Source: Candidatus Omnitrophota bacterium
GTDB lineage: Bacteria; Omnitrophota; Gorgyraeia; Zapsychrales; Zapsychraceae
Direction of reading: 5' to 3'
Assembly: GCA_015233115.1 (NCBI GenBank)
Contig: JADFYJ010000002.1
Span: forward strand, 38,016 to 102,015
Length of the DNA: 64,000 bases
Under the pieces are notes generated by a model that had not been told where the DNA came from, did not search any database, and was given only the letters and a program-made list of their open reading frames with translations. Below, piece after piece: positions 5,171 through 56,422 of the stretch. Position 1 is the first letter of the stretch. Every line of letters starts with the position of its first letter. The translations under genes were made by a program, and so were the position numbers.

Positions 5171-5398
5171 GTCACAAGGACACAAAGTCACAAGGTCACA
5201 AATAAAAATAAAAGTACAAAATAAAAAAACGACTGGTAAGCAGTTAACACCGAAGATAACTCAAACTGGTGATAAAATTTTGTTACATGTTTGACAAGTT
5301 ATGACTTTGCGTATATTTTTTTTGGCATTATTATTCGTTTTTTCCGAATCTTTTCTATCCTTTGTGACCTTGTGACCTTGTGACTTTGTGACTTTGTC
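5171..5398. repeat. IR-flanked intergenic element, family B (TIRs are tandem gtcacaaR octamers)
   Basis: Left arm ggtcacaaggacacaaagtcacaaggtcacaa. Right arm cctttgtgaccttgtgaccttgtgactttgtgactttgtc. About 160-bp AT-rich core. The right arm supplies the stop codon of the large REC-domain gene. Confidence 0.6.
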
Positions 5399-8300
5399 TA
5401 CGCTTTACTTCCAGCCTTATCATTCATCAGTTCCGAGAAGATCGGCAGGCTGGAAGGCGCTATGGGTTTGATATCAATTATATACGGACTTAACCCGTCA
5501 ATTTTGATGCTATTGATATCCTGCATTTCCACGGGTAAAGGCACACCATTGCCATCGCGTTTAATCTGCATATTTAACATAGCCGCGTTTAAGTCGATAC
5601 CACCGACGTCGTCTCTTTTTAATTGCGCGCTATCGGATTCATTTTTCTTTTGAACAAATAAAGCGGCTATAGGATCTACCGCGGCATAAATGGCATTAAT
5701 ACCATCCAATTTAGAAACTAAGCCATCAATTTTTGCTCGCGATACCGCCAATTTAACTTCATCCGTATATGCGTTAGCACTTATAATAATTGATTTCACG
5801 GCGTCCATTCCAGGAATTTTCCGTATTGATTCAATCATTTGAACGCCAGTTTTATTTTTCATGTTATAATCCGAAAAAAGCAATTCAGGTTTAAATGCGC
5901 CATCTGATATTATTTTTTCAGCCTCTTCTGGAGAGCTGGCAAGAACAACTTCATAGCCTCTATCTTTTAAAACCATCTCATACAATTCTCTGGTAAATTG
6001 ATTATCATCCACCACCAAAACCTTCATGGCGCGATCAGCAGCACCGGCAGCAGCTAATTTAGGGCCAATAAGCCATGGTGTTTTTGGAGCAGTTGTAGCT
6101 TTAATATATTTAAATGTCATTTCAGCAATAGCCATAAAAAATTTTACGTTTGAATCAGAATCGAGATTTTTACCTTCAGGCGAATCCAAACGTTTTTGAA
6201 TATTTCCGATTGAAATATAAGAACTTCCGCCTTGCATTATTAGAGCAGCCCTAATTTGCGAATCTGTAGCATCAGCTAAGGCCACTACGTTTCCAGTCTT
6301 GGCTGCTTCCGCCGCTACCATAGGTTTTAAATACTTATTCACTTCATCAACTAATGTTTTGACAGTTTCATCCTTGATCGGTGTGAATGCACCCTTTTTC
6401 CCCAGCATAGCCTGATCTTGCTCTAATAGCCTCACAATTTCTTCCACAACCATATACCCAAACAAAGTTAAATCTTCTGTATCCTCCGGGTTTTCCCCAT
6501 AATTAAAAGTTTTGTAATTAACTATAATTTTTTCTCCCTTATCCTTCGCTTCTCGTAATCTCTTGGCTACAGCGAGTACAGCTTGTTCTTGTTTTTCTTC
6601 AGCACTATTATAATCTAAACCTGCTATATGAATTTCAAATTCTACCTGGGACTCTAATATACCGCTAATCGCTTTCGGCGAACGCATAAGCACCTTAAAT
6701 GCCTCAGCAAGTTCCCCTTCTTTCAAAGGTGCGGCTGTTAGCATAGCATTATCATTAAAAATGCCAGCTTGTATAACCGGCCTAAGCAAATCAGTCCCTT
6801 CTACATCTGTTTTTCCTTTTGCGTCAGTTACTAATCCTGATATAACATTTCGTCCATTGGCACTTAAATCAAAAAATACTTCAACTTTCGGATGCTTTAA
6901 TAGAAAATTTATAAAAGCTCTTATCTCTCTTTCATTTTCTTTGTTTGCTCCATTATTAAGGGCCGTTTGTAATTCATTAATCAATTTTTTATTATCCTGA
7001 ACGCCCGCCATATGATTGACAAAATTATGACCTTCTGTTTTCATAAATCGAACCAGTGAAGATGCCGCCTTCTTGATATCTCTTCCCGGATTCCGGCCGG
7101 TCAGCCCTTCATAAAGAAAAAAGTTCATAGCAGAAAATAAAATCAGAACCGCTAAGATCCGGGTTGTTCGGTTAAAATTAATCCCCTTATCAAGAGCACG
7201 AATTATAAAATCATCATCTTTATTTTCATTTTTCTGATAAGTCTCGTTAATGTGTTGAGCAATTGCAGTCGATAAAAGCTGGGGGGAATTTAAAATTTGC
7301 TCAAAAGTATAATATTTATTCTTATTTTGCGCATCCTTGACAAACTTCCCCTCACTTTTTTTTGATTCTTGATCAATTGCCAAACATGCTCCAATAATCA
7401 TTCCATCTAAACTAAATAGTACTGTCCTCACTACTGCGAGAGGTTCTTCACTCAATTGTTTTCTTACTGATTCCCGCACTAGCTCAGGGTCATTCGTCTT
7501 CAAAATTTCTTCCAACATGGCGCGATCTGCCTCATTAGGTATGAGGGCATTCAACTCAGTTTGTATACGCGGTTCTTCACCTGATGATTCAAACATTTTT
7601 GAATAACGAGTGATTAATTCCAATCCATTTGGTTTTTGAGAAATTCTTGACCGCTGACGATCCAAACTAATACCGACTTCATCGATCGTTCTTTTTGTTC
7701 CATATATCTCCAGCAATTCTCTCTCTCGGGCAGTTAAGCTATCTTCTCTTTTTACTAATAAAGCATTGTCCATCTTACCTATAACCCCACCTGAAAAATA
7801 TTTTCTGGGGATCACCTGCTGACTGGTTGGGTCGTATTCTTCCTTGATATAGTCGTACACGCCTTTTTTAAAGGCTTCTAAATACTGTTCATAAATTTTC
7901 TGATTGGCTTCTTTGTCCGTTAAATCCACACCTTTGACTTTGGTTTTATCCGCGTAAATTTTGCCTAAAAGGCTTTGTTTTAAAGTACGTTTATACCAAG
8001 CGGCTAAGATCATGGACTGATAGATCTGGCGCAATAAGGCGAAATGTTCTCCGGAATTAACTTCTTTTTCCAGGGCCGGAATAATGATTTCCCTCACGAC
8101 TTGAGTGGTTACTGTGCTGGACTGATCAAGTTCAGATGCCTGCATTTGATTCGCGCTAATGGCTTCATTATTTTTGTTTTTCTGCAGGGCAACATAATCT
8201 TTGTCCAACATCACTTTTAAACTGCTGTCTACAATCCAGGCCACATTGTCTTTTTCATAGACCACAGCTTTTTGCGGGACAATCCACACCTTATTAAAGG

Positions 8301-8832
8301 TATTCATCGGCAGTTCAGTCACGCCGTATTTTTGAGCAGCTTCTTTATAAACTTTTTCCCAAAATTTTTTACCTAATTCATCTTCCGGGTACATTAAAGA
8401 CGCGGTTAATTGCTTAAGAATGTAATCCTGGCTTAAAAGATCGCGGCCCATTTCTGTCTGGCCGAAATCCTGCGCAATAATGCGGTTATTTTCATAGGGC
8501 GACAAGTTGACCCATTGGTTATTTTCAGGGACAGTTAAAGAAGCCAAGAAATATTTGACTAATTTTTTATATTCATCTTCCTGTATGGAACCGGTTAAAG
8601 GCTTATCTCCGGCTTCAATAAGGAATTTCATCTGCAAAGGATTTTTGGTGTCAATTTCAATACCGCGCACTAAAGCAGGATTAAATACAGCGGATGATTT
8701 GACCATAGTTCCAGCTGGAGGCATGAACATAGCAACCTGCGCCATAGCCCGGGACTGGAAACACGAAGTCCAACCAAAGGTTATAATAAGAAAACTACAA
8801 ATAAATTTGAATAACAAAGTTTTTTTATACAT
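5398..8832 (-). CDS. large (~1144 aa) signal-peptide/TM-anchored protein with C-terminal response-regulator receiver (REC) domain
   Basis: The track ORF extends to 9015. The likely start is MYKKTLLFKF at ~8832, preceded by GGGGG. N-terminal hydrophobic segment, ~900 aa without a motif I recognise, then KVLVVDDNQFTRELYE...LLFSDYNM...SIIISAN...KIDGLVSKL (REC). Confidence 0.5.
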   Translation of the reverse strand: MYKKTLLFKFICSFLIITFGWTSCFQSRAMAQVAMFMPPAGTMVKSSAVFNPALVRGIEIDTKNPLQMKFLIEAGDKPLTGSIQEDEYKKLVKYFLASLTVPENNQWVNLSPYENNRIIAQDFGQTEMGRDLLSQDYILKQLTASLMYPEDELGKKFWEKVYKEAAQKYGVTELPMNTFNKVWIVPQKAVVYEKDNVAWIVDSSLKVMLDKDYVALQKNKNNEAISANQMQASELDQSSTVTTQVVREIIIPALEKEVNSGEHFALLRQIYQSMILAAWYKRTLKQSLLGKIYADKTKVKGVDLTDKEANQKIYEQYLEAFKKGVYDYIKEEYDPTSQQVIPRKYFSGGVIGKMDNALLVKREDSLTARERELLEIYGTKRTIDEVGISLDRQRSRISQKPNGLELITRYSKMFESSGEEPRIQTELNALIPNEADRAMLEEILKTNDPELVRESVRKQLSEEPLAVVRTVLFSLDGMIIGACLAIDQESKKSEGKFVKDAQNKNKYYTFEQILNSPQLLSTAIAQHINETYQKNENKDDDFIIRALDKGINFNRTTRILAVLILFSAMNFFLYEGLTGRNPGRDIKKAASSLVRFMKTEGHNFVNHMAGVQDNKKLINELQTALNNGANKENEREIRAFINFLLKHPKVEVFFDLSANGRNVISGLVTDAKGKTDVEGTDLLRPVIQAGIFNDNAMLTAAPLKEGELAEAFKVLMRSPKAISGILESQVEFEIHIAGLDYNSAEEKQEQAVLAVAKRLREAKDKGEKIIVNYKTFNYGENPEDTEDLTLFGYMVVEEIVRLLEQDQAMLGKKGAFTPIKDETVKTLVDEVNKYLKPMVAAEAAKTGNVVALADATDSQIRAALIMQGGSSYISIGNIQKRLDSPEGKNLDSDSNVKFFMAIAEMTFKYIKATTAPKTPWLIGPKLAAAGAADRAMKVLVVDDNQFTRELYEMVLKDRGYEVVLASSPEEAEKIISDGAFKPELLFSDYNMKNKTGVQMIESIRKIPGMDAVKSIIISANAYTDEVKLAVSRAKIDGLVSKLDGINAIYAAVDPIAALFVQKKNESDSAQLKRDDVGGIDLNAAMLNMQIKRDGNGVPLPVEMQDINSIKIDGLSPYIIDIKPIAPSSLPIFSELMNDKAGSKA

Positions 8833-8942
8833 ATTTTTGCCCCCTTCTATAATAATCGGCCTACACTGAAAATATATACTATATTTGGAGAAAAACAAGA
8901 GCTGTAGGAAGATTATAAGAAAGCGGTTACAATAAAAAGTTA

Positions 8943-8973
8943 TAAAGGTGGTAAAGGTATAAAGGTGATAAAG
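8943..8973. repeat. tandem nonamer repeat (taaaggtgR x3.5), family G
   Basis: ataaaggtggtaaaggtataaaggtgataaagg. The reverse complement recurs at ~61366-61395. Confidence 0.4.
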
Positions 8974-8983
8974 GAAAATAAAA

Positions 8984-9030
8984 CTAAAAATAAAAAAGCC
9001 GCAGGTTGTGAACAATTATCCAACCTGCGG
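8984..9030 (-). terminator. rho-independent terminator downstream of the SET/speH-like operon
   Basis: Perfect 10-bp stem ccgcaggttg/caacctgcgg, followed on the minus strand by cttttttatttttag. Confidence 0.5.
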
Positions 9031-9054: not shown

Positions 9055-9510
9055 TTATCTCGCAAAAGCCGGAGCTAACGCTTCTTCTCGGCTGGATACG
9101 TATCCGCGGCAATTAGGCGCGCCACAGGAACAGTTGAACGGCTTAAACAGCACATCTTCTGTTTGTAGGTAATCCATGGTGATCAGTTCGCCCGGGTTAA
9201 TCGCCTGCACAGCAATGAATTGCCGTGTTTCCATGTTGCAGTACGTATTAGGATTACAACAATGCAAAACTTTACCCATAAAAAATGGGTCGTGCACATG
9301 TAAACCATTGCGATAACGCAAGGAATACTGAGTGATCTCAGTGACTAAAAACCCTGTAAACGCGAACACAATGTCGCCAGGCAGAAATGACTTTAAAGCC
9401 ATAACGCCGTTGCCGACACTGTCACCGATTTTTTGAATACGGAAATCTCCTGGTTTAGGCTCATAAGGAAATTCAGGTAATGAATCTGGATAGAATCGAT
9501 TTTTTATCAT
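9055..9510 (-). CDS. SET-domain protein (putative protein-lysine methyltransferase)
   Basis: GNGVMA (GxG). HCCNPNTYC matches the NHSCxPN motif. GELITMDY matches ELTFDY. Post-SET CSCGAPNCRG is present. Confidence 0.8.
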   Translation of the reverse strand: MIKNRFYPDSLPEFPYEPKPGDFRIQKIGDSVGNGVMALKSFLPGDIVFAFTGFLVTEITQYSLRYRNGLHVHDPFFMGKVLHCCNPNTYCNMETRQFIAVQAINPGELITMDYLQTEDVLFKPFNCSCGAPNCRGYVSSREEALAPAFAR

Positions 9511-9884
9511 CTTAATAGCACCTGGTAATTTGTGGTTGTTGGTCCAAAAGTTTTTTTCAAGAAGTCAACTACGGCTTCTTCCGAAAAAGTCTTGCAACTA
9601 AAGACATCCAGATACATATCGCCCGCCTGGTCATTGGTATGCATGGTGATAGCGCTGGTCTCGATTAATTGTACGCCTGAGATACCGGTTTGCACTCCTT
9701 TGCCAAAACGTTCGACAACAGGGTCACCAAAGGCAACCATATCAATCAATTTGACAAGTTTCGTTATCCAACCTGAAATAACTTTTTTGTCCAAAATATT
9801 GTCATTGCAGCCACGGGCGGTAATGATCAAATGTTTGCCATAATAAACAACCCCATCATATTTAATACATCTATATTCCTGCAT
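9507..9884 (-). CDS. S-adenosylmethionine decarboxylase proenzyme-like protein (SpeH/AdoMetDC family)
   Basis: GKHLIITARGCN, VQLIETSAITMHT and YLDVFSCKTF align with SpeH GRHLxAEFYxCD, ESHxxIHTWPE and DxFTCG. The canonical ES|H processing site is replaced by E-T-S. 4-nt overlap (ATGA) with the SET gene. Confidence 0.6.
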   Translation of the reverse strand: MQEYRCIKYDGVVYYGKHLIITARGCNDNILDKKVISGWITKLVKLIDMVAFGDPVVERFGKGVQTGISGVQLIETSAITMHTNDQAGDMYLDVFSCKTFSEEAVVDFLKKTFGPTTTNYQVLLR

Positions 9885-11151: not shown

Positions 11152-11227
11152 GGCGGGGTAGCTCAGCTGGTAGAGCATACGGTTCATACCCGTAGCGTCG
11201 AGAGTTCGATCCTCTCCCCCGCCACCA
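11152..11227 (+). tRNA. tRNA with CAT anticodon (Met elongator or Ile2-lysidine type), CCA encoded
   Basis: 76-nt cloverleaf. Acceptor ggcgggg/ccccgcc. D-arm gctcagctggtagagc. Anticodon stem tacgg/ccgta with loop ttCATac. T-arm gagagttcgatcctctc. G1:C72 argues against initiator tRNA. Confidence 0.85.
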
Positions 11228-12034: not shown

Positions 12035-12069
12035 CTTTGTTACTCTGTTACTCTGTCACTCTGTTACTT
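12035..12069. repeat. solo arm of family C repeat (tandem gttactcN heptamers)
   Basis: ctttgttactctgttactctgtcactctgttactt, preceded by cccatcaatcgctttt as at ~14651. Overlaps the radC stop codon. Confidence 0.5.
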
Positions 12070-13006: not shown

Positions 13007-13309
13007 TTAGGTGAAAAAAATAACATATAACAAAATTAAAACAGCCACACCCATGGCCATATAAAAACGGTTATAATATATCAAATCCTGAATACGTTCT
13101 TGGGCGGAATATTCATACTGTACTGTTTCAACTTTAACAGAACCAACATTTTTTAAGTCCAAGACTTCTTCGTGCTTCAAACGCAAAAATTTATTCGCGA
13201 TTTTATATGCCTGTAATTTGCGTTCTTCAATCAGATCCATGACCTTGCGCTCGGTGACACCTAGCAATTGCGCGCTTTCCCGGACTGAAATATATTGAGG
13301 ACTATTCAT
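13007..13309 (-). CDS. excisionase/MerR-type HTH protein with C-terminal TM anchor
   Basis: The likely start is MNSPQYISVRESAQLLGVTERKVMDLIEERKL (HTH_17-like). C-terminal hydrophobic helix MAMGVAVLILLYVIFF. The track ORF begins earlier, at 13342. Confidence 0.45.
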   Translation of the reverse strand: MNSPQYISVRESAQLLGVTERKVMDLIEERKLQAYKIANKFLRLKHEEVLDLKNVGSVKVETVQYEYSAQERIQDLIYYNRFYMAMGVAVLILLYVIFFT

Positions 13310-13314
13310 GTTTA

Positions 13315-13842
13315 TTAAGCTACTTTCGCTGATCCTGCCCAAATCTCAATTTTTTGCTTTTCAAAAAGCCACGCGCGTCCGCTTTTAATGCCCGGTATCT
13401 CTCCCGTATTCGCCATGCGTTCAATTTCTTCTCCGTCAATCTCCAAATAATGCGCGACTTCCTCCATGGATAAAAGACCTTCAACCATTTGGCATTTACC
13501 GTTAAAAATCGCGCCTTCGACAATATTCACCTTAGGCGAGACAATGTTTCCCAAAACAACTGCCGTCGGCAACAAAACCAACATTTTATGCGCCAGCACA
13601 TCGCCGGTGACTTTTCCGGCAATAATGACATTGTCACTGATAATGTTTGCATCCACTTCCGAAGTTTCGCCAATAGCTAGAGAACCATGGGTATCCAGAC
13701 TTCCGATAAATTTCCCGTTAATCTTCAAATTGACCGGGTCTTTAAATACCAAATTGCCCTGCATTTCCGCATTGATCTCGATGTTACGGCCCATTTCTTC
13801 AGAAGCATTATTCTTATCATCTCTACGCGGACGTAAACCCAT
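13315..13842 (-). CDS. bactofilin-domain protein with C-terminal excisionase-type HTH
   Basis: Beta-helical repeat region ending in EGAIFNGKCQM, which matches the bactofilin consensus EEGARFNGRCRM. C-terminal SMEEVAHYLEIDGEEIERMANTGEIPGIKSGRAWLFEKQKI resembles an HTH_17 domain. Confidence 0.7.
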   Translation of the reverse strand: MGLRPRRDDKNNASEEMGRNIEINAEMQGNLVFKDPVNLKINGKFIGSLDTHGSLAIGETSEVDANIISDNVIIAGKVTGDVLAHKMLVLLPTAVVLGNIVSPKVNIVEGAIFNGKCQMVEGLLSMEEVAHYLEIDGEEIERMANTGEIPGIKSGRAWLFEKQKIEIWAGSAKVA

Positions 13843-13859: not shown

Positions 13860-14312
13860 TTATTGATGACTTTTATGTTTTTCTTTAAGTTTTGTTTCGA
13901 ACGGTTTAATTAAAATCAAAACAGAAGCCACGGCCGCCGTAATAAACATCGCCGTTTGATACATGCCGCATCCGACGGCAATACCTATTCCGGCTACAAT
14001 CCATAATGATGCCGCAGTGGTCAGCCCCATCACATGCGAATCACCCCGGAAAATCGCCCCGCCGCATAAAAAACCTATACCAGTAATAATTCCCGTGATA
14101 ATCCGGGCCGGATCCCCTTTAGTTGTCCCATTGTATATATCAGAAAGGTAAAAGGAAGTCAATACGAGGAGTGTCGTACTGACTCCGACCAAGATATGAG
14201 TGCGCAAACCCGCGTCTTTGAATTTCAGTTCGCGTTCTATTCCGATGACTCCGGACAAGAACATAATCAATCCCACCTTAGACATCACCTGCAAAATAGG
14301 CATTTCCGTCAT
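13860..14312 (-). CDS. mgtC: MgtC/SapB family membrane protein
   Basis: LIMFLSGVIGIERE..AGLRTHILVGVSTTLL is typical of the MgtC N-terminal domain. Confidence 0.65.
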   Translation of the reverse strand: MTEMPILQVMSKVGLIMFLSGVIGIERELKFKDAGLRTHILVGVSTTLLVLTSFYLSDIYNGTTKGDPARIITGIITGIGFLCGGAIFRGDSHVMGLTTAASLWIVAGIGIAVGCGMYQTAMFITAAVASVLILIKPFETKLKEKHKSHQ

Positions 14313-14324
14313 TGGTAACCTCCC

Positions 14325-14697
14325 TTATAGTAACCGAGTAACAAAGTAACAGAGCAAAAGCAAAAAACTATTGGTTTAAAAAACATAAAACCAAAAAGCC
14401 AGATTAACCGAATAACAAAGAAACCGAGCGAAAGTAGAAAACGATTGGTTTAAAACATACAAAACAAAAAAATCATAACTAAAAATTAATTTGAAAAAAT
14501 CAAATAAAGTAACATAAAAATCGTATTGAAAAACTTTGATAAAACAACTCGTAAACATCACTGTCTTTTATCTTTTAAAACCAATATTCCCATTCGTATT
14601 TAAATTTTTTCACCAATCTTTTTTTTCGCTGCCACTTTGACACGTTTTGTTTTTCACCCATCGCTTTTACTCTGTTACTCGGTTACTCGGTCACTTT
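14325..14697. mobile_element. IR-flanked element, family C (~370 bp)
   Basis: Left arm agtaaccgagtaacaaagtaacagag. Right arm ctctgttactcggttactcggtcact. Internal direct repeats aacNattggtttaaaa(a)cataNaaaac. The right arm encodes the last 6 codons and stop of tsaD. Confidence 0.6.
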
Positions 14698-45432: not shown

Positions 45433-46005
45433 TTAAGAACAACTCTGCGCCTCTGGATAAGAACTCATATTAATTGCTGCTCGCGGATTCTTAATCGGAT
45501 CCCATGGATGAGTAGCATCTATAACTTGTGTCGGGTCTGCCTGCAAAGTTAAATCAATGCGAATTTTGCAACCCGTCCATTGAAGAGAAGCCGTCACTAC
45601 TTTCTTGGAAAGTATTTCCGCTCCTGCTACCGCGCAATTAGCCGGATTCTGAGTAGCCGAATTATCAAATCTACAAATTGTATTCTTTGTACTTCCGCTG
45701 GCATCATAACGGTAAACGACCCACTTTGAAACAGAAGCATCTTTTTGAAACGATATTTGATTGGCAGAAGCAACAATTGTAGGTGATTCTCCAACATTCC
45801 CTTGGGTCTCTAAAGCATCCTTACTAATCCGCGCTGCTATAGTCATAGCTTCAATTTTCAATGTCGCAGAAGTTTGTGTGGTAACGCCGAAACGTCTCAT
45901 GGAGATATCAAACCCAATGATACCAAGCATAACCACGCCGATCAAAGTCGTTGCGATTAGAAGCTCCGCTAGTGTAATCCCTTGTTTATTAAATTTTTTT
46001 ACCAC
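45433..46005 (-). CDS. minor pseudopilin with prepilin-type N-terminal domain (PilW/GspJ-like), copy 2
   Basis: KQG|ITLAELLIATTLIGVV prepilin cleavage/methylation motif with E+5. 190 aa. Confidence 0.6.
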   Translation of the reverse strand: MVKKFNKQGITLAELLIATTLIGVVMLGIIGFDISMRRFGVTTQTSATLKIEAMTIAARISKDALETQGNVGESPTIVASANQISFQKDASVSKWVVYRYDASGSTKNTICRFDNSATQNPANCAVAGAEILSKKVVTASLQWTGCKIRIDLTLQADPTQVIDATHPWDPIKNPRAAINMSSYPEAQSCS

Positions 46006-46029
46006 CTTTACCTCCTCATCCTCATTTTA

Positions 46030-46389
46030 TCAATTCGGCCAGGACACATTCATGTAAATATTTCTGGCTTTAGACGAATCATCTACCACATAATAATTGA
46101 TGGTACAGCTGGTATTTGAATCAGCGTTATATACTATCGTATGCGTGCCACTAGGCTTGAGTGGATTGCTGTTGTCATTCCAAATAGTGGCATCAATCGA
46201 TGTCCGGAATGTCGCTAAAATATATTTTGCCGCGTATAAACATCGCGTCTCGCTCGATGATTGGGTGACTTTAGGACGAAGCATAGTCGTGGTCGCCATT
46301 ATCCCTGCCGCAGCGATCAAAAAAATAACCGCTGTTATAACCACTTCGACCATGGATGCTGCTCCGCGCCTTTTAACAGATTTTAACAT
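46030..46389 (-). CDS. small pseudopilin-like protein (PilV/GspI-like), copy 2
   Basis: RRGAASMVEVVITAVIFLIAAAGI hydrophobic N-terminal helix. Paralog of 47007-47351. Confidence 0.5.
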   Translation of the reverse strand: MLKSVKRRGAASMVEVVITAVIFLIAAAGIMATTTMLRPKVTQSSSETRCLYAAKYILATFRTSIDATIWNDNSNPLKPSGTHTIVYNADSNTSCTINYYVVDDSSKARNIYMNVSWPN

Positions 46390-46440
46390 TTTATTAACCT
46401 ATTTTTACTCAAATTTCTGTACTATCTATTCATTATCTCT

Positions 46441-47019
46441 TCAAAAAGAACTCAACACACAACTAAACCCTCCGCTTGAAGTATAACGCGGATTTTTCAT
46501 GATATCAACTACATATCCTGGACTCATATCATAGACCAGAGTAATGGTCACTGAGACAGCATTTTGTTGCTGGACAATATTATATGCTTCAACATTGTCG
46601 AGTAATACCTCTGCCGTAGCCAGATTACACACGCCAGTATTGTCCGATGGGATACATCTTAACAGCCGATGATCATTCGTAAACCAATAAGTGATCCAAG
46701 TATCATCAGCATAGGTCGGAGTTGGGGTTGGGTTGCGGTCTACCCTCACAGTTAATTTGGAGGGCGGAAATACTTGCAAACCTTTATCTAATTTGGAGCC
46801 TATAGCCCGATAAACATTTCGGGACATATCCGCAAAAACACTATCTGCTCTAATGCGAAGAATGGAACTTCTTTGTTGAGTGGATTGAAACCTTTGGAGG
46901 GTCAAACTAAAGCCCATAACGCCTAACAAGATCACGCTGACTAAAACCGTAGCTGTGAGAAGTTCAGAAAGAGTCAGGCCTTTTTTTTGAGGTGCAAAAT
47001 TCATAATTAATCCGGCCAA
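46441..47019 (-). CDS. minor pseudopilin with prepilin-type N-terminal domain (PilW/GspJ-like), copy 1
   Basis: KKG|LTLSELLTATVLVSVILLGVMGF. Paralog of 45433-46005. Confidence 0.6.
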   Translation of the reverse strand: MAGLIMNFAPQKKGLTLSELLTATVLVSVILLGVMGFSLTLQRFQSTQQRSSILRIRADSVFADMSRNVYRAIGSKLDKGLQVFPPSKLTVRVDRNPTPTPTYADDTWITYWFTNDHRLLRCIPSDNTGVCNLATAEVLLDNVEAYNIVQQQNAVSVTITLVYDMSPGYVVDIMKNPRYTSSGGFSCVLSSF

Positions 47020-47351
47020 GTAGCGTTCAGATAAACATTTCTAGCGCCCGTCGTAGCATCATTTATGATCAGATAACTAATCGTGCAGCCGTCTATTGTT
47101 TTACTATATTTTCCTGGATATAAAGGATTGGTAGAACTGTCCCATGTGCTGGCATCAACATTAAACCGTAAAGAAGACAATATATTTTTGGCCGCATACA
47201 TGCATTCTACCTCTTTTGACGATTGAACAGCTTTAGGCCGCAACATAGAGGTTGTCCCAATAATCGCTCCGGCCGCGACCAAAAAAATAACCGCGGTAAT
47301 GACTATCTCAACCATAGACACTGTGCCGCGATTTTTAAGAGATTTTAACAT
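47007..47351 (-). CDS. small pseudopilin-like protein (PilV/GspI-like), copy 1
   Basis: NRGTVSMVEIVITAVIFLVAAGAI. 114 aa. Confidence 0.5.
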   Translation of the reverse strand: MLKSLKNRGTVSMVEIVITAVIFLVAAGAIIGTTSMLRPKAVQSSKEVECMYAAKNILSSLRFNVDASTWDSSTNPLYPGKYSKTIDGCTISYLIINDATTGARNVYLNATWPD

Positions 47352-47420
47352 ATTGCTTTTCTATAAATTTGGGGCTCTTTTTTATAAGGGTACACCTTCC
47401 GGAACCACTCGTTTTCTTTA

Positions 47421-47858
47421 CTAATTCGTCGGGCAATTACCACCCGTGCTGACACAGCCCGGATTTGCGGCCGTTATATCCCCATCCGTTAAAGTAAAAT
47501 CACAAATGTTAGCTCCTGACCTATGACTTAATCTTGCAGTATATCCTGGGTTATTATAAATATAAAAGGTTCCCGCAGTCGGGACCATATTGTTTATATT
47601 CAAATTCAAAACCATGTTAGTGTTTATAGTGGCAATGTCTGCCGTCGTGGCTGGATAAAACGTTCCTGCTTCCGAATGATAAATGGTGTTCGCGCCGCTA
47701 AACGCGATTAACTGGGCTTTGGCATTTCGACAGTCATTATTCCGGGAAGTTTTTTGATATCCGGGAATAGCAATCGTGGCCAATATTCCGATTATCACCA
47801 CCACGATCATCATTTCCATGAGGGTAAAAGCTAATTTATTTTTCATATGCCCTGCCAT
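47421..47858 (-). CDS. type IV pilin-like protein (third pilin)
   Basis: LA|FTLMEMMIVVVIIGILATIAIPGY class III signal sequence. 145 aa. Confidence 0.65.
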   Translation of the reverse strand: MAGHMKNKLAFTLMEMMIVVVIIGILATIAIPGYQKTSRNNDCRNAKAQLIAFSGANTIYHSEAGTFYPATTADIATINTNMVLNLNINNMVPTAGTFYIYNNPGYTARLSHRSGANICDFTLTDGDITAANPGCVSTGGNCPTN

Positions 47859-47916
47859 ATTCGCGCAAATTACTTGCCATCATAAACGCCGTTCAAGTCA
47901 TGCGCTCCTTTAAAAA

Positions 47917-48351
47917 TTAATGAGTACCCGCAAAGAAACCAGTCCCTGAACGGGTGATTCCCGTAGCTGTGGCAGTTAAAACAACTGTCCCTGTTTGACC
48001 ATTTTCAACTGTCGTATCGCGAGTGGCCGTAATGGTTACATTTTGCGCTGTATCAAGATTAGCTACTGCATACGTCCAATGTCTCCCTGCCACCCCATTT
48101 ACATTACCAATATCTAAGTTGGTCCCCCAGCTGGTGCTGGTCATACAGACAGCGGCCGTATTCCCCGTTATCACACACCGATGAAGCGAATTGCGGAGAC
48201 CATCAAAAGTTGCAAAAGCCTCTGCTGTACGGGATCTTTCGACAGTATTAAATAAATTCGGTAAAGCTAAACTGGCCAAAACACCGATAATAATAACTAC
48301 AATAATCAATTCTAATAGTGTAAATCCATTAATTTTTTTCATAGTTGTCAT
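47917..48351 (-). CDS. pilA: type IVa major pilin, copy B
   Basis: NG|FTLLELIIVVIIIGVLASLALPNL. About 90% identical to the adjacent copy. Confidence 0.75.
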   Translation of the reverse strand: MTTMKKINGFTLLELIIVVIIIGVLASLALPNLFNTVERSRTAEAFATFDGLRNSLHRCVITGNTAAVCMTSTSWGTNLDIGNVNGVAGRHWTYAVANLDTAQNVTITATRDTTVENGQTGTVVLTATATGITRSGTGFFAGTH

Positions 48352-48355
48352 TTTT

Positions 48356-48392
48356 TAAAAAGGGGAGAGCATGACCCTCCCCTCATAATTAA
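48356..48392 (-). terminator. rho-independent terminator between the two pilA copies
   Basis: Minus strand reads ggggagggtcatgctctcccc followed by ttttttaaaa. Confidence 0.5.
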
Positions 48393-48402
48393 CAAAATAG
48401 TT

Positions 48403-48834
48403 TTAATGAGTACCAGAAAAGAAACCAGTCCCTGAACGGGTGATGCCCGTAGCTGTGGCAGTTAAAACAACTGTCCCTGCTTGACCATTTTCAACTGTGG
48501 TATCGCGAGTAGCTGTAATAGTTACATTCTGCGCTGTATCAAGATTAGCGGCTGCATACGTCCAATGTTTCCCAGCTACAGTATTAACGTCGCCAATATC
48601 TAAGTTGGTTGCCCAGCTAGTGCTGGTCATACAGAGAGCAGCCGTATTCCCCGTCGTCACACACCGATTAAGAGAACTACGGAGACCATCAAAAGTCGCA
48701 AAAGCCTCTGCTGTACGGGACCTTTCTACAGTATTAAACAAATTCGGCAAAGCTAAACTGGCCAAAACACCAATAATAATAACTACAATAATCAATTCCA
48801 ACAATGTAAACCCTTTTTTATTCCTCATTTTCAT
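48403..48834 (-). CDS. pilA: type IVa major pilin, copy A (promoter-proximal)
   Basis: KG|FTLLELIIVVIIIGVLASLALPNL. 143 aa. Confidence 0.75.
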   Translation of the reverse strand: MKMRNKKGFTLLELIIVVIIIGVLASLALPNLFNTVERSRTAEAFATFDGLRSSLNRCVTTGNTAALCMTSTSWATNLDIGDVNTVAGKHWTYAAANLDTAQNVTITATRDTTVENGQAGTVVLTATATGITRSGTGFFSGTH

Positions 48835-48930
48835 TTAAAACTCCTTTCTTCTGTTTGACAGCGTTCATTCCTATTAAAACTATAACATATTCCTTTTAGA
48901 CAGTCAAAATAGTATTCTTATTAAATATGT

Positions 48931-50163
48931 TTACCCTCCTGTTGACATTTTAAACAAAGGCAAAAACATTGCCACTACAATGGTCCCTATGACTGCACCC
49001 ATAAAAACAATCATTACGGGTTCTATCATCGTTGAAACCCTTTTAATATATACTTCAACCAATTCTTGATAATATTTAGAAACATGTTTCAACATCTTAC
49101 TTAACTCACCTGTCTCTTCCCCTACACTAATAAGCTGAACACACATGGCAGGAAAAAAACCACTTTTTTCCATCGGTGTCACTATGAGTTCGCCCTTTTT
49201 TACTCCTTCTTTTATGCTCCTCACAATTTTCGAACAGGTAATATTATCCACTAATTTTTCGGCAATATCCAATGCCGCTAAAATAGGCACCCCCGCTTCG
49301 ATTAAAATAGCCATTTGCCCAGAAAATCGTTCCACGACTATGAGCCGAAATACTTGACCCACACTAGGAACTTTAAATAAAAAATGTTCAAACCCTTCTT
49401 TCCCATGCGGAGTTTTAATAAATTGAAGAAATAAATATCCTGCCACCCCGATACCCGCGACAATAAACATAAAATAATTCCTGACAAAAGCGAATATGGA
49501 TAACAAAATGATCGTAATCATGGGCAGTTTTATATTCATAGATTTAAATATAGACTCAAAACGTGGTCCAACAAACAAAGCGAAAAAGGCAATTGCTCCG
49601 CACGCGACACAAAATAATAAAATGGGATATATGAGACTGGATACAATGGTCGTCCTAAACCCATTTTGCTGATCCATGTAGAAAGTCAATTTATTCAAAA
49701 CAGTCGGCAAAGAGCCTGAAGCTTCTCCAACCTCAACCAAACTCACCCAAAATTGATTAAACGCCTTAGGATGCTTGGCCAAGGCTTGGCTTAAAGAAAG
49801 ACCTTTTTCCACATCTTCTTTAATCTTAGCGACAATCTTGCTCAAACGTTCACTTTCCACTTGGCCACTGATGACTTCCAAACTGCGCATGAGCGATACC
49901 CCAGCCTCGAGCATGGTGGCTAACTGACGGGCAAAAACAATAAGATCCTGAAGTTTAATGACTTTATGTTTGTGTTTGACTGTAACCCGATGAAGCGGCG
50001 CGCCTCTTTTCTGGCCTGCTTGCAAAGAGAATTCCGTAATACTAATAACAAAATATCCCTGCCGCTGTAACAAATCAGACGCAGTAATACGATCTGAAGC
50101 ATCAACAAAGTTCTCCACAGATCTACCATTTTTATCTTTAGCAATAAAACTAAAACGAGGCAA
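48931..50163 (-). CDS. pilC: type IV pilus assembly platform protein PilC (GspF family)
   Basis: MPRFSFIAKDKNGRSVE start. Two GspF repeats, 3 TM. Confidence 0.9.
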   Translation of the reverse strand: MPRFSFIAKDKNGRSVENFVDASDRITASDLLQRQGYFVISITEFSLQAGQKRGAPLHRVTVKHKHKVIKLQDLIVFARQLATMLEAGVSLMRSLEVISGQVESERLSKIVAKIKEDVEKGLSLSQALAKHPKAFNQFWVSLVEVGEASGSLPTVLNKLTFYMDQQNGFRTTIVSSLIYPILLFCVACGAIAFFALFVGPRFESIFKSMNIKLPMITIILLSIFAFVRNYFMFIVAGIGVAGYLFLQFIKTPHGKEGFEHFLFKVPSVGQVFRLIVVERFSGQMAILIEAGVPILAALDIAEKLVDNITCSKIVRSIKEGVKKGELIVTPMEKSGFFPAMCVQLISVGEETGELSKMLKHVSKYYQELVEVYIKRVSTMIEPVMIVFMGAVIGTIVVAMFLPLFKMSTGG

Positions 50164-50215
50164 TTTTAACTCCTGCTTAATGATTAAATTTTTCTTTGTG
50201 ACCCTGTGACTTTGC

Positions 50216-53523: not shown

Positions 53524-53535
53524 AAAACACTCCTT

Positions 53536-54030
53536 TTATGGTTTAAGTGTGTAAGTCTCGCCTTGAAAAGAAACAGCCACGCCTTCTTTTGTTATCGATA
53601 GAATCTTAATAATTAAATCTTCCGAAGTCGATTGTTCAGAACCTTCTGGTATTCCCACATTATTTTTTGGGGCAGACGTCGATATCGTTGACGTATAGGG
53701 TAACACATCGCCCACATTATATACTTTATTGTCAATAATAGCTTGAGGCCGATCTGAATTCCAAACTAAACCTTTCACCACAAAAGGTGGCAAAGAAAGC
53801 TTCACCGGAGGAGGTGGAGGCGGAGTCGGTTCCGGAGCAGGTGTTGGCTCCGGATTCAGGTTCGGGTTCGGCGTTGGAGCCAGATTCGGTTCAGGCGCGA
53901 GAATTGGTTTCTCTGCTATAGGCATTTGAACCTCAAAAGGATCTTTTTCAAATTCAATTTCTTCAGCCCAAGAAATAACCGGCCAAATTAAAATCATTAC
54001 TGAAATTATAAAAATAATTTTCTTATTCAT
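53536..54030 (-). CDS. PilP-like pilus assembly lipoprotein (putative)
   Basis: Signal peptide, Pro-rich linker, C-terminal beta domain. Assignment by position between the PilO-like gene and pilQ. Confidence 0.4.
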   Translation of the reverse strand: MNKKIIFIISVMILIWPVISWAEEIEFEKDPFEVQMPIAEKPILAPEPNLAPTPNPNLNPEPTPAPEPTPPPPPPVKLSLPPFVVKGLVWNSDRPQAIIDNKVYNVGDVLPYTSTISTSAPKNNVGIPEGSEQSTSEDLIIKILSITKEGVAVSFQGETYTLKP

Positions 54031-54622: not shown

Positions 54623-54626
54623 AAAA

Positions 54627-56180: not shown

Positions 56181-56422
56181 ACTCTCCCCGAATCTTTTAT
56201 ACACGGAACACAACACAAATTTCAGTGGCTGATTTTTAGTTTTTGGTTTTTAGAAAAAAATATATTTGATTAGCAACAACAACCAACCAACGACCAACAA
56301 CCAGTATTACTGTATTGTGCCCCAAGTTTTAAGATTGCATATGTATCTTATGTAAAAAAAAACAATAAGTCTATAATATTCTAAAAAATTTTTTGCTTTG
56401 TGCAAATGAATCCTCCTACTCA

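What the first reader, a model, noticed from the sequence alone, without database searches (positions are those of the whole stretch)
13007..13842. Bactofilin with a built-in C-terminal HTH, followed by an HTH protein with a membrane anchor
The 175-aa protein has a canonical bactofilin beta-helix (ending EGAIFNGKCQM) fused to an excisionase/MerR-type HTH (SMEEVAHYLEIDGEEIERMANTGEIPG...). The adjacent downstream gene encodes another HTH_17-like domain fused to a C-terminal TM helix. The pair could form a polymer-forming, DNA-binding, membrane-tethered assembly. That would be a minimal chromosome-anchoring or positioning module that does not need a ParB-like adaptor. The pair sits near radC, downstream of a tRNA gene, and is flanked by repeats.
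Basis: partly seen in the sequence, partly recalled or inferred. Interest (0 to 1): 0.55.

Follow-up and report, generated by a model that had tools for sequence, protein, structure and literature searches.

The report
Bactofilin–HTH fusion with membrane-anchored HTH partner
An uncultivated bacterial phylum (Omnitrophota) always encodes, side by side, a filament-forming bactofilin that ends in a small excisionase-type helix-turn-helix domain and a membrane-anchored protein with a similar domain; the pair is real, ancient and undescribed in the papers searched, but the sequence evidence argues against the bactofilin's own domain reading DNA in the usual way.

Summary
Gene A (13315-13842, minus strand, 175 aa) is Bactofilin (PF04519) plus HTH_17 (PF12728). 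Gene B (real start ATG 13309, 100 aa) is HTH_17 plus a C-terminal transmembrane helix. All three domain matches exceed Pfam's curated cut-offs.

The fusion is not an assembly artefact. At least 182 species-level genomes and 548 metagenome stretches encode relatives, and in all 164 loci fetched one reading frame carries both domains. B follows A in 80/80 close loci, in 67/72 distant loci with enough downstream sequence, and in a 33%-identical relative. The named genomes are almost all Omnitrophota.

The context is a conserved core-genome block, gatB-ctpA-tsaD-(mgtC)-A-B. It is not a mobile element: radC, the tRNA and the flanking repeats are specific to this genome.

In A's domain, helix 2 (the DNA-recognition helix of this fold) is acidic throughout the family, and the positions that contact DNA in BldC lack basic residues. 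That resembles the non-DNA-binding CbpM. B keeps a basic wing with an invariant Arg. No ParA or ParB signature motif was found in the flanks.

My preferred reading (confidence 0.4) is a membrane-bound bactofilin scaffold coupled to a tail-anchored adaptor through pairing of the two HTH domains. Any DNA contact would come from B. I found no publication describing the fusion.

The parts
13315..13842 (-). Gene A: 175-aa bactofilin with a C-terminal winged HTH (stop codon included)
   Evidence: (PF04519 79.8 bits, PF12728 31.9 bits), (AF2 mean pLDDT 82); 571 homologues, and the 120 listed all carry both domains.
13819..13842 (-). N-terminal tail of A (MGLRPRRD). The family motif M-A-[LFI]-R-x-[RK]-[RK] resembles the bactofilin membrane-targeting sequence.
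   Evidence: (logo from 81 sequences), compared with the published consensus MFSKKKK (PMC12448750). This is a resemblance only; membrane binding was not tested.
13489..13782 (-). Bactofilin beta-helix domain of A (aa 21-118), including F113, the polymerisation-interface Phe
   Evidence: One search aligns F113 with BacA F130 and TtBac F105 (mutants at these residues, F130R per PMC12448750 and F105R per the title of PDB 6ria). The residue is invariant in the 28-sequence alignment and hydrophobic (L/F/I/V) in the distant set.
13336..13476 (-). Excisionase/MerR-type winged HTH of A (aa 123-169), with an acidic helix 2 (EIDGEEIERMANTGE). It is joined to the beta-helix by only 4 residues.
   Evidence: BldC 6ama rmsd 1.7 A, RdfS 8dgl rmsd 1.3-1.5 A. 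(charges). (mapping onto BldC). (linker is 4 aa in 66/81 close relatives).
13007..13309 (-). Gene B: 100-aa tail-anchored winged-HTH protein (start ATG 13309, 5 nt after A's stop; stop codon included)
   Evidence: 118 homologues, nearly all 99-102 aa. (start and gap). (AF2 model).
13157..13294 (-). Winged HTH of B (aa 6-51), with a basic wing (net charge +4) and an invariant Arg43
   Evidence: PF12728 29.0 bits. (Pukovnik Xis 4j2n: target-normalised TM-score 0.82, rmsd 1.5 A; also RacA and BldC)..
13061..13099 (-). Aromatic motif of B next to the membrane helix (ERIQDLIYYNRFY here; family consensus [ED][RK][VIL]xDFFYFNDFY)
   Evidence: One search shows it conserved in both the close and the distant branch.
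13013..13066 (-). C-terminal transmembrane helix of B (aa 82-99); the protein ends one residue later
   Evidence: helix 81-99, pLDDT about 91; a hydrophobic 18-residue stretch near the C-terminus in 67/67 distant homologues. The topology (N-terminus in the cytoplasm) is inferred, not tested.
13860..14312 (-). mgtC-family membrane protein directly upstream on the same strand, 17 nt before A. It is a frequent but not obligatory companion, and here it is probably co-transcribed.
   Evidence: PF02308 116 bits. Present upstream in 49/80 close loci and in 44 of the 80 distant metagenome loci, many of which are too short to show it.

Best explanation
A and B form a conserved two-protein, membrane-associated scaffold of Omnitrophota.

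Shown or strongly indicated:
- A is a genuine bactofilin. The beta-helix fold is predicted and the polymerisation-interface Phe is conserved.
- A has a basic, hydrophobic N-terminal tail that resembles the bactofilin membrane-targeting sequence.
- Each A subunit therefore carries a small excisionase/MerR-fold winged HTH at the C-terminal end of its beta-helix.
- B is a tail-anchored protein with one winged HTH, a variable linker, a conserved DFFYFNDFY-type motif and a terminal transmembrane helix.
- The two genes are always adjacent and often overlap.

Inferred:
- A's winged HTH has been repurposed from DNA reading to protein binding, as in CbpM.
- Its acidic helix-2 face docks on the basic wing of B's winged HTH. 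This is the same kind of interface (helix-2 side against wing) that BldC uses for head-to-tail oligomers.
- The bactofilin polymer would thereby be coupled to, and would cluster, an integral-membrane adaptor. This is how RodZ's HTH couples MreB to the membrane.
- If the module contacts DNA at all, it does so through B's basic wing and not through sequence reading by A.
- The conserved housekeeping synteny suggests a constitutive role in cell-envelope or cell organisation. It does not suggest a mobile-element function.
For: Pairing:
- B is directly downstream of A in 80/80 genome loci. Gaps run from -4 to 120 nt, and 17 loci have a 4-nt overlap between A's stop and B's start codon.
- B is downstream in 67/72 distant metagenome loci, and also next to a relative of A that is only 33% identical.

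A as a bactofilin:
- Domain and fold.
- F113 aligns with the polymerisation residues BacA F130 and TtBac F105.
- The N-terminal motif M-A-[LFI]-R-x-[RK]-[RK] resembles the published consensus MFSKKKK (PMC12448750).

A's HTH as a non-canonical domain:
- Helix 2 has a mean net charge of -3.3 and -2.6 in two sequence sets, with a range of -5 to 0.
- The BldC contact positions K26, T27, T29, R30 and K33 (PMC5859096) correspond to E138, E139, E141, R142 and N145 here. In the close family the commonest residues are P, A or E, E, E and N. The R30 equivalent is acidic in 51/81 and 78/84 sequences.
- CbpM (3ucs) is found by Foldseek for both A and B. Its equivalent helix is VSEEELTEIVGLG.

B's wing is basic, +3.9 and +3.1 in the two sets, and R43 is invariant in both.

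The BldC head-to-tail interface joins residues next to and in helix 2 of one protomer to the wing of the next (PMC5859096).

Precedent for bactofilins that bind an operon-encoded HTH protein near its HTH and hold it at the membrane: BacR with BacE/BacF (PMC13649987).

Core-genome context: gatB-S41 peptidase-tsaD-(mgtC)-A-B in both the close and the distant branch.
Against: - No direct evidence of an A-B contact exists. A prediction of the complex could not be run.
- The net charges of A's HTH and B's HTH do not co-vary (rho 0.01).
- The mirror-tree correlation between the two HTH domains (r = 0.43) barely exceeds the within-protein control (r = 0.41).
- A already has a tail resembling a membrane-targeting sequence, so it may not need an anchor.
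- Both domains pass the curated HTH_17 and excisionase thresholds, and most members of that family bind DNA.
- The window's own protein has Arg at the BldC R30 position.
- B's helix 2 is also acidic in the distant branch. A simple model of an acidic A domain on a basic B domain therefore rests on B's wing alone.
- In the window's clade the HTH follows the beta-helix after only 4 residues. It might instead modulate the C-terminal polymerisation interface.
- B's membrane topology is inferred. The residues flanking its membrane helix do not give a clear positive-inside signal.
Confidence: 0.4

Rival explanations
1. Both winged HTH domains bind DNA. The bactofilin polymer arrays many weak DNA-binding domains along the membrane and B adds a transmembrane tether. 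The pair would then anchor or position the chromosome without a ParB-type adaptor. This is analogous to RacA-DivIVA, to BacNOP-PadC-ParB, or to the single-protein Par of plasmid pSK1.
For: - Both domains exceed the curated cut-offs of HTH_17 and TIGR01764.
- The closest solved folds are architectural DNA binders that act as oligomers: BldC, RdfS, Xis, RacA and pSK1 Par.
- Bactofilins are already known to organise chromosome segregation proteins in Myxococcus (PMC5703909).
- The wings keep basic residues. In B the wing is +3 to +4 with invariant R43. In A, K/R153 and R/K162 are conserved.
- Non-polar bactofilin filaments would bring two C-terminal HTH domains together at each C-C junction. This is an inference from the published filament architecture.
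- The window's A has Arg142 at the BldC R30 position.
Against: - A's recognition helix is acidic in all 165 sequences examined. It lacks basic or polar residues at the five BldC contact positions, and the whole domain has a net charge of -2.4 to -3.3.
- B's helix 2 is acidic in the distant branch (mean -1.8).
- No conserved DNA motif lies upstream of the operon.
- The 8-nt repeat arrays near the operon in this window are absent from the 80 related genome loci.
- No ParA or ParB signature motif was found in the flanks. This fits a ParB-independent model but gives no positive support for a segregation role.
Confidence: 0.3
2. A regulatory switch of the BacR type. B would be a membrane-tethered transcription factor, or an anti-factor. 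Its DNA binding or availability would be controlled by sequestration on bactofilin polymers through A's HTH. This would link gene expression to envelope or filament state.
For: - In Bacillus subtilis the HTH protein BacR is encoded in an operon with the bactofilins BacE and BacF. They bind it near its HTH, inhibit its DNA binding and hold it at the membrane (PMC13649987).
- B has the more DNA-competent HTH in the window's clade. S19, K21 and K22 are conserved and the wing is basic.
Against: - B is permanently anchored by a transmembrane helix and has no sensor domain. No release mechanism such as a protease site is evident.
- No conserved operator-like motif lies upstream of A or mgtC in the 56 intergenic regions of at least 20 nt that were tested.
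- K21 and K22 are not conserved in the distant branch.
- B has no detectable homology to DUF4004.
Confidence: 0.15
3. A's C-terminal HTH mainly acts in cis. Sitting 4 residues after the last beta-strand, it would cap or reshape the C-terminal polymerisation interface. It could limit A to dimers or short oligomers, or create a new HTH-HTH junction. B would be an independent client protein.
For: - The linker is 4 residues in 66/81 close relatives.
- The relative orientation of the two domains is uncertain in the model (pTM 0.59).
- Bactofilin polymerisation uses the C-terminal end of the beta-helix (PMC12448750).
Against: - In the distant branch the linker is typically 12-15 residues, which argues against an obligatory cap.
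- The interface Phe is conserved.
- The strict A-B adjacency is left unexplained.
Confidence: 0.1
4. The pair is cargo or an excisionase module of an integrated mobile element (tRNA, radC, flanking repeats), or the fusion is an assembly or gene-calling artefact.
For: - The HTH is of the excisionase type.
- tRNA-Met lies 1.8 kb away.
- radC is adjacent.
- Repeat arrays at 12039-12068 and 14329-14358 bracket radC-B-A-mgtC.
Against: - Synteny with gatB, ctpA and tsaD is conserved across deep divergence.
- radC is adjacent in only 2/80 loci.
- The repeats are absent from the 80 related genome loci.
- No integrase gene was noticed in the window's ORF map, which was judged by eye and by Pfam scans of 13 of its proteins only.
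- The single-frame fusion is found in 164 independently assembled loci and hundreds of database proteins.
Confidence: 0.02

Closest known systems
Canonical bactofilins (C. crescentus BacA, T. thermophilus TtBac; PF04519)
   Same: - The beta-helix domain matches: Pfam 79.8 bits and Foldseek hits to 2n3d and 6rib.
- The C-terminal interface Phe is conserved.
- The N-terminal tail is short, basic and hydrophobic, like the membrane-targeting sequence.
   Different: - Canonical bactofilins have disordered terminal tails (PMC12448750). Here a folded 50-residue winged HTH follows the beta-helix after 4 residues.
- The N-terminal motif (MALRxRK) differs from the MFSKKKK consensus.
BacNOP-PadC-ParB/ParA of Myxococcus xanthus (PMC5703909)
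   Same: A bactofilin scaffold linked to DNA-organising proteins.
   Different: - In Myxococcus the link to DNA goes through separate adaptor proteins (PadC, ParB). Here an HTH is built into the bactofilin.
- No ParA or ParB signature motif was found within 5-6 kb in 164 loci.
- The built-in HTH lacks the usual DNA-contact residues.
BacR (YhbD, DUF4004) with bactofilins BacE/BacF of Bacillus subtilis (PMC13649987)
   Same: An HTH protein is encoded in one operon with bactofilins. The bactofilins bind it near the HTH, hold it at the membrane and reduce its DNA binding.
   Different: - BacR is soluble, about 29 kDa and dimeric, and is encoded upstream of the bactofilin genes.
- B is a 100-aa tail-anchored protein encoded downstream.
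- No DUF4004 match was found.
- The Bacillus bactofilins carry no HTH of their own.
RodZ-MreB
   Same: A membrane-anchored protein whose cytoplasmic HTH binds a cytoskeletal filament and not DNA. This rests on my own knowledge of the MreB-RodZ complex structure (van den Ent et al. 2010) and was not checked here.
   Different: - RodZ has an XRE-type HTH, an internal transmembrane segment and a periplasmic domain.
- B has an excisionase/MerR-type winged HTH and ends at the membrane helix.
- There is no homology; this is an analogy only.
CbpM (PDB 3ucs), modulator of the co-chaperone CbpA
   Same: A MerR-fold domain with an acidic helix 2 (VSEEELTEIVGLG). It binds a protein, the CbpA J-domain, as the entry title states. 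Foldseek finds it for both A and B.
   Different: - CbpM is a free-standing 101-aa protein with a C-terminal helical extension.
- There is no sequence-level relationship beyond the fold.
- That CbpM does not bind DNA is from my own knowledge.
BldC, RdfS and Xis: small excisionase/MerR-like winged HTH proteins that oligomerise head-to-tail on DNA (PMC5859096, PMC11963761)
   Same: These are the best structural matches to both HTH domains (rmsd 1.3-1.7 A over about 50 residues). They have the same beta-alpha-alpha-beta-beta-alpha topology, and B passes the TIGR01764 cut-off.
   Different: - These proteins have basic recognition helices (BldC: K26, T27, T29, R30, K33).
- A has acidic or neutral residues at these positions, and B is intermediate.
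- No recombinase or mobile element is associated with the pair.
RacA (PDB 5i44) and pSK1 Par (PDB 8csh)
   Same: Both contain a MerR-like winged HTH that binds DNA (from the entry titles). From my own knowledge, in both the HTH is joined to a self-associating region and serves chromosome anchoring (RacA) or plasmid partition (Par).
   Different: - Their self-association uses coiled coils, not a bactofilin beta-helix.
- Their HTH domains are basic and are shown bound to DNA.
MamR (magnetosome protein, NF040990)
   Same: A small HTH_17/Xis-like protein that works in a membrane-organelle context. A negative surface patch is noted in its model (PMC3905215).
   Different: B scores only 21.8 bits against a cut-off of 100. 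MamR has no transmembrane helix in that description, and B is not a member of the family.

Membership tests
Bactofilin (PF04519) | Match to the family profile above the curated cut-off | tested here: met
   79.8 bits against a cut-off of 27.9, covering profile positions 3-98 of 98.
Bactofilin (PF04519) | Right-handed beta-helix fold | tested here: met
   AF2 model with strands across residues 19-118 and pLDDT 89-96. Foldseek top hits are BacA 2n3d and TtBac 6rib/6ria. This is a prediction, not an experimental result.
Bactofilin (PF04519) | Conserved hydrophobic residue at the C-terminal polymerisation interface (BacA F130, TtBac F105) | tested here: met
   F113 aligns with both residues. It is invariant in the 28-sequence alignment and is L, F, I or V in the distant set.
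Bactofilin (PF04519) | N-terminal membrane-targeting sequence (consensus MFSKKKK) | tested here: inconclusive
   The family motif is M-A-[LFI]-R-x-[RK]-[RK]. It has a similar character but a different sequence from the published consensus (PMC12448750).
Bactofilin (PF04519) | Nucleotide-independent polymerisation into filaments | not testable with these tools
   Needs purified protein with electron microscopy or sedimentation.
HTH_17 / excisionase-family DNA-binding domain (PF12728, TIGR01764) | Match to the profiles above the curated cut-offs | tested here: met
   A: 31.9 bits (cut-off 27) and 32.7 bits (cut-off 28.8). B: 29.0 and 32.1 bits. Nine distant relatives of A score 22.6-49.3 bits for HTH_17, eight of them above the cut-off of 27.
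HTH_17 / excisionase-family DNA-binding domain (PF12728, TIGR01764) | Winged HTH fold of the MerR/Xis type | tested here: met
   Secondary-structure order in the models. Foldseek hits to BldC, RdfS, Pukovnik Xis and RacA with target-normalised TM-scores of 0.6-0.86.
HTH_17 / excisionase-family DNA-binding domain (PF12728, TIGR01764) | Basic or polar DNA-contacting residues on the recognition helix (A's domain) | tested here: not met
   The positions equivalent to BldC K26, T27, T29, R30 and K33 are E, E, E, R and N here. In the close family the commonest residues are P, A or E, E, E and N. Helix 2 has a mean net charge of -3.3 and -2.6.
HTH_17 / excisionase-family DNA-binding domain (PF12728, TIGR01764) | Basic or polar DNA-contacting residues (B's domain) | tested here: inconclusive
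   K21, K22 and the wing residue R43 are basic in the window's clade. D25 and E28 sit at the BldC R30 and K33 positions. In the distant branch K21 and K22 are mostly E or D, but R43 stays invariant.
HTH_17 / excisionase-family DNA-binding domain (PF12728, TIGR01764) | Actual DNA binding | not testable with these tools
   Needs a gel-shift or fluorescence-polarisation assay with purified domains.
Recombination directionality factor (excisionase) of a mobile element | Linkage to an integrase or recombinase and a variable, element-like context | tested here: not met
   The housekeeping synteny gatB-ctpA-tsaD-(mgtC)-A-B is conserved in both branches. No integrase was noticed in the window's ORF map, which was only partly scanned with Pfam.
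Classical MerR transcription regulators | Long dimerisation coiled coil and C-terminal effector domain after the winged HTH | tested here: not met
   A ends 6 residues after the Pfam HTH match. In B the HTH is followed by a linker, an aromatic motif and a transmembrane helix.
ParABS or bactofilin-PadC-ParB type segregation module | Adjacent ParA-type ATPase or ParB-type protein | tested here: not met
   No deviant Walker A (KGGxGK[ST]) or ParB GERRxR motif in ORFs of at least 150 aa in 164 loci, 1.22 Mb. This was motif-based only, and genome-wide co-occurrence was not tested.
BacR / DUF4004 | Match to the DUF4004 profile | tested here: not met
   No such hit for B or A at E up to 1.
MamR (NF040990) | Match above the curated cut-off | tested here: not met
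   B scores 21.8 bits against a cut-off of 100.

The most novel reading that the evidence does not exclude
The most novel reading not excluded is this. Omnitrophota use a bactofilin polymer as a ParB-independent tether between the nucleoid and the membrane. B's basic wing would hold DNA at the membrane. A's acidic winged HTH would pair head-to-tail with B, as in BldC or Xis-type oligomers. One filament would then cluster many weak DNA-membrane links into a positioning device. This would be a new way to build a chromosome anchor, and the first bactofilin with a built-in excisionase-fold coupling domain.
Probability: 0.25. Interest if true: 0.75.

Novelty: new variant of a known kind. Interest (0 to 1): 0.5.

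Why it matters
Bactofilins are widespread cytoskeletal scaffolds. Known clients are recruited through disordered tails or separate adaptors.

This family has a folded excisionase-type domain fused to the polymer, and it always comes with a dedicated tail-anchored partner carrying the same fold. It is conserved across a whole uncultivated phylum of mostly ultra-small bacteria.

If the two HTH domains pair with each other, this is a clear case of a DNA-binding fold re-used as a coupler between a filament and the membrane. If they bind DNA, it is a minimal polymer-based DNA-membrane tether.

Either outcome can be tested with two small proteins in E. coli or in vitro. Either would give a first handle on cell organisation in Omnitrophota.

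The family is annotated only generically, as 'polymer-forming cytoskeletal protein' or 'excisionase family DNA binding protein'. The searches of the paper library turned up no paper describing the fusion (one search listed none).

Tried and rejected
1. Operator search. I counted k-mers in the tsaD-A gaps (30 regions) and the tsaD-mgtC gaps (26 regions of at least 20 nt). Only A/T-rich words, promoter- and Shine-Dalgarno-like sequences, and motifs shared by very close genomes stood out. There is no conserved operator.

2. Cis-element test. The 8-nt arrays GTTACTCK near the operon occur 13 times in the window against 0.24 expected. They occur in none of the 80 related genome loci, so they are not a conserved binding site.

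3. Charge compensation between A's HTH and B's HTH across 80 pairs: rho 0.01. Several other segment pairs gave nominal p < 0.02, uncorrected for 20 tests and for phylogeny, and I did not interpret them. The mirror-tree correlation between the two HTH domains was r = 0.43, against r = 0.41 between A's HTH and A's bactofilin domain. This is too weak to use.

4. Paralogy of the two HTH domains. hhalign gave 45% probability, E = 2e-4 and 11% identity. They share a fold family but are not a recent duplication.

5. ParA/ParB linkage. No motif hits in 164 loci.

6. Second bactofilin or second B-like gene in the window. None found with family HMMs.

7. Downstream third gene. It is not conserved: a small protein with a lipoprotein-type signal peptide, BamE-like by eye, in 21/67 close loci; a nuclease-like protein in 10/67; radC in 2. 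In the distant branch the common downstream genes look LarB- and LarC-like by eye.

8. Sequence searches of the PDB with the isolated HTH domains gave only weak hits (E > 0.05). Fold search was needed.

9. Tools that failed. The afdb50 fold library was unavailable. A record look-up for CAZMGY010000013.1 failed.

Full report
**What is in the window**

The finding covers two tightly linked genes on the minus strand.

Gene A (13315-13842, 175 aa) matches Pfam Bactofilin over residues 21-118 (79.8 bits, cut-off 27.9). It also matches HTH_17 over residues 123-169 (31.9 bits, cut-off 27). NCBIfam's excisionase-family DNA-binding domain TIGR01764 scores 32.7 bits (cut-off 28.8).

Gene B is listed mechanically as a 111-aa TTG ORF (13007-13342). 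Its homologues are almost all 99-102 aa, and the family alignment starts at MxxxQYISVRE. The real start is therefore ATG 13309, which lies 5 nt after A's TAA stop. B matches HTH_17 (29.0 bits) and TIGR01764 (32.1 bits), and it ends in an 18-19-residue hydrophobic helix.

The AlphaFold2 model of A (mean pLDDT 82) shows a beta-helix at residues 19-118 followed by a beta-alpha-alpha-beta-beta-alpha winged HTH at 123-172. B's model (mean pLDDT 70.6) shows the same winged HTH at residues 6-55, a poorly defined linker, and helices at 69-79 and 81-99.

Foldseek against the PDB matches A's N-terminal part to BacA (2n3d) and TtBac (6rib). It matches A's C-terminal part to BldC, the RdfS excisionase, Pukovnik Xis, RacA, CbpM and pSK1 Par. 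B's best matches are Pukovnik Xis, RacA and BldC.

**The fusion is real, old and nearly confined to Omnitrophota**

- The word-indexed protein search returned 571 homologues of A. The 120 listed all carry both Pfam domains within 163-185 aa, and every organism named by a source is Omnitrophica or Omnitrophota.
- A scan of one genome per species found 182 genomes that encode a relative. Among the 80 loci kept, most are labelled Omnitrophota. A set of MAGs is labelled 'uncultured Planctomycetales', two are labelled only 'bacterium', and one 8-kb contig comes from a 'Lysobacterales' MAG. Because they share the same synteny, I take these labels to be mislabelling or binning errors.
- The exhaustive search of 50%-identity cluster representatives found about 25 representatives that align across both domains, down to 33% identity. 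Nine distant ones were scanned and all have Bactofilin plus HTH_17.
- A metagenome scan with a distant sub-alignment found at least 548 further coding stretches.

The 'would refute' condition of a frameshift or gene-calling artefact is therefore excluded.

**The two genes are an obligate pair**

- B lies directly downstream of A in 80/80 genome loci. Intergenic distances run from -4 to 120 nt, and 17 loci have a 4-nt overlap between A's stop and B's start codon.
- In the more distant metagenome set, 67 of the 72 loci with enough downstream sequence have a B-like gene. All 67 have a hydrophobic C-terminus.
- Next to P0268, which is only 33% identical to A, the downstream gene is a 97-aa HTH_17 protein ending in a transmembrane helix.
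It is an aromatic motif next to the membrane helix, [ED][RK][VIL]xDFFYFNDFY, which reads ERIQDLIYYNRFY in the window.

**The context is core genome, not a mobile element**

Upstream synteny gatB, S41/PDZ peptidase (ctpA-like), tsaD, (mgtC), A, B is conserved in the close set. The counts there are TsaD 76, S41 71, GatB 67 and MgtC 49 of 80 loci. The same order recurs in the distant set.

radC is adjacent in only 2/80 loci. tRNA-Met (11152-11227) and the repeats are particular to this genome. The gene downstream of B varies.

Where mgtC is absent, sequences resembling sigma-70 promoters and Shine-Dalgarno sites precede A (judged by eye). This is consistent with A-B being an operon of its own.

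**Is the built-in HTH a DNA-binding domain?**

Fold and family say it is of the excisionase/MerR type. The residues say otherwise.

The BldC-DNA structures define the contacts. K26 and R30 read bases. T27, T29 and K33 hold phosphates. R47, R48 and H46 of the wing enter the minor groove (PMC5859096).

A profile alignment and a MAFFT alignment place these helix-2 positions at A residues E138, R142, E139, E141 and N145.

| Measure | Close set (81 sequences) | Distant set (84 sequences) |
|---|---|---|
| R30-equivalent position | E in 44, D in 7 | E or D in 78 |
| Helix 2 mean net charge | -3.3 (range -5 to -2) | -2.6 (range -4 to 0) |
| Whole HTH domain mean net charge | -2.4 | -3.3 |

None of the five positions has a basic residue as its commonest residue in either set.

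The known MerR-fold protein with this signature is CbpM. Its equivalent helix reads VSEEELTEIVGLG, and it was crystallised bound to the CbpA J-domain. That it does not bind DNA is from my own knowledge.

B is less clear. In the window's clade it keeps S19, K21 and K22 at the start of helix 2 and a strongly basic wing (+3.9) with invariant R43. It also has D25 and E28 at the BldC R30 and K33 positions. In the distant branch K21 and K22 are mostly acidic and helix 2 averages -1.8. R43 stays invariant and the wing stays at +3.1.

My estimates are about one in three that A's HTH binds DNA and roughly two in three that B's does. These are judgements, not computed values.

**How it most likely works**

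Shown:
- A has the bactofilin fold in the model.
- A has the conserved interface Phe. F113 aligns with BacA F130 and TtBac F105. BacA F130R is polymerisation-deficient according to PMC12448750.
- A has a basic, hydrophobic N-terminal tail, M-A-[LFI]-R-x-[RK]-[RK]. It resembles the membrane-targeting consensus MFSKKKK (PMC12448750).

Inferred:
- A forms membrane-associated polymers in which each 3-nm subunit displays a winged HTH.
- B is inserted by its C-terminal helix with its winged HTH in the cytoplasm.

In BldC oligomers the side of one protomer around helix 2 (F21, R22, V23, W31) packs against the wing of the next (I40, T42-G44) (PMC5859096). I therefore propose that A's acidic helix-2 face pairs with B's basic wing. 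This would couple the filament to an integral-membrane adaptor and cluster it.

There are two precedents:
- RodZ uses an HTH to bind MreB (my own knowledge).
- The Bacillus bactofilins BacE and BacF bind the operon-encoded HTH protein BacR near its HTH, hold it at the membrane and reduce its DNA binding (PMC13649987).

Any DNA contact would come from B's wing. I give this reading a confidence of 0.4.

**Rival readings**

It has the fold relatives on its side: RacA, pSK1 Par, BldC and RdfS are all oligomeric DNA organisers. It has to explain an acidic recognition helix.
- A BacR-like regulatory switch (0.15). It lacks a conserved operator and any release mechanism for B.
- A cis-acting role of the HTH at the polymerisation interface (0.1). 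It is suggested by the 4-residue linker in 66/81 close relatives. It is weakened by the 12-15-residue linkers in the distant branch.
- Mobile-element or artefact explanations (0.02). These are effectively excluded.

**Tests that gave nothing decisive**

- The net charges of the two HTH domains do not co-vary (rho 0.01).
- The mirror-tree correlation between them (r = 0.43) barely exceeds the within-protein control (r = 0.41).
- The two HTH domains are not close paralogues (hhalign probability 45%, 11% identity).
- No ParA or ParB signature motif occurs in 1.22 Mb of flanking sequence from 164 loci.
- A prediction of the A-B complex could not be run with the tools allowed.

**Novelty and score**

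Databases annotate these proteins only as 'polymer-forming cytoskeletal protein' or 'excisionase family DNA binding protein'.

In the paper library, no paper holds 'bactofilin' together with Omnitrophota or Omnitrophica. Of the 21 papers with 'bactofilin' and 'helix-turn-helix', the 17 listed do not appear, from their titles and abstracts, to describe such a fusion.

I class this as a new variant of a known kind. It is a bactofilin with a built-in excisionase-fold domain and an obligate tail-anchored partner. The pair is conserved across at least the large part of Omnitrophota sampled here.

Interest is 0.5. The anatomy is unusual and the hypotheses are directly testable with two small proteins. 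The function remains inferred, however, and the most exciting reading (a ParB-free chromosome anchor) is weakened by the residue analysis.

Noticed in passing
window 12039-12068 (+), 14329-14358 and 14403-14416 (-), 14666-14695 (+), 58721-58750 (-): There are short tandem arrays of an 8-nt unit, GTTACTCK, with 13 matches against 0.24 expected. The arrays at 14329-14361 and 14663-14695 form an 88% complementary inverted repeat. They bracket about 300 nt of an unusually long tsaD-mgtC spacer (362 nt here, a median of about 24 nt in related loci). The spacer also holds a 67-nt direct repeat (14331-14397 and 14405-14471). It looks like a small MITE-like insertion specific to this genome, because the pattern is absent from the 80 related genome loci. 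One arm overlaps the last codons of tsaD (...SDRVTE*).
   Followed up: partly
window 5398-9015 (-): A 1205-aa ORF in which Pfam recognises only a response-regulator receiver domain (aa 999-1113). The roughly 1000 residues before it match nothing.
   Followed up: partly
window 9055-9510 and 9507-9884 (-): A small SET-domain protein (151 aa; 24.1 bits, just above the cut-off) overlaps the end of a 125-aa AdoMet-decarboxylase-family protein. A paper on neofunctionalised AdoMetDC homologues mentions Omnitrophica (PMC10407285), but I did not read it.
   Followed up: no
loci L012, L018, L024, L029, L031, L032 and others (5-21 nt downstream of B); loci L016, L019, L025 and others: In 21 of 67 close loci a 115-140-aa protein follows B directly. 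It has a lipoprotein-type signal peptide and looks BamE/SmpA-like by eye. In 10 loci a nuclease-like secreted protein follows instead. In the distant branch, LarB- and LarC-like genes (by eye) follow in 26 and 19 loci. None of these was scanned against a family library.
   Followed up: partly
locus L081 3289-4946 (upstream of the distant A homologue P0268): In this divergent lineage the pair is preceded by a SPOR-domain protein and a TPR/PDZ protein, not by tsaD and mgtC. SPOR domains are usually associated with septal peptidoglycan (my own knowledge), which hints at a link to cell division or the envelope.
   Followed up: no
protein P0264 (231 aa, from the representatives search): A protein made of three tandem HTH_17 domains (122 bits in total) with canonical basic recognition helices (for example LSYPTVYKLAKQGKI). 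It is a useful contrast to A's acidic helix.
   Followed up: partly
loci L003, L004, L011, L014 and others, and L075: Many MAG contigs with the typical Omnitrophota synteny around A-B are deposited as 'uncultured Planctomycetales', and one 8-kb contig belongs to a 'Lysobacterales' MAG. These are probably taxonomic mislabelling or binning contamination in the public records.
   Followed up: no
window 45433-56216 (-): A run of small proteins have pilin-like N-termini (for example GFTLLELIIVVIIIGVLA). They are followed by larger ORFs that may encode the ATPase and platform proteins of a type IV pilus or type II secretion cluster. This was judged by eye only. Downstream are recA-, recX- and alaS-like genes, and a uvrA-like gene lies at 61379-63988.
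   Followed up: no
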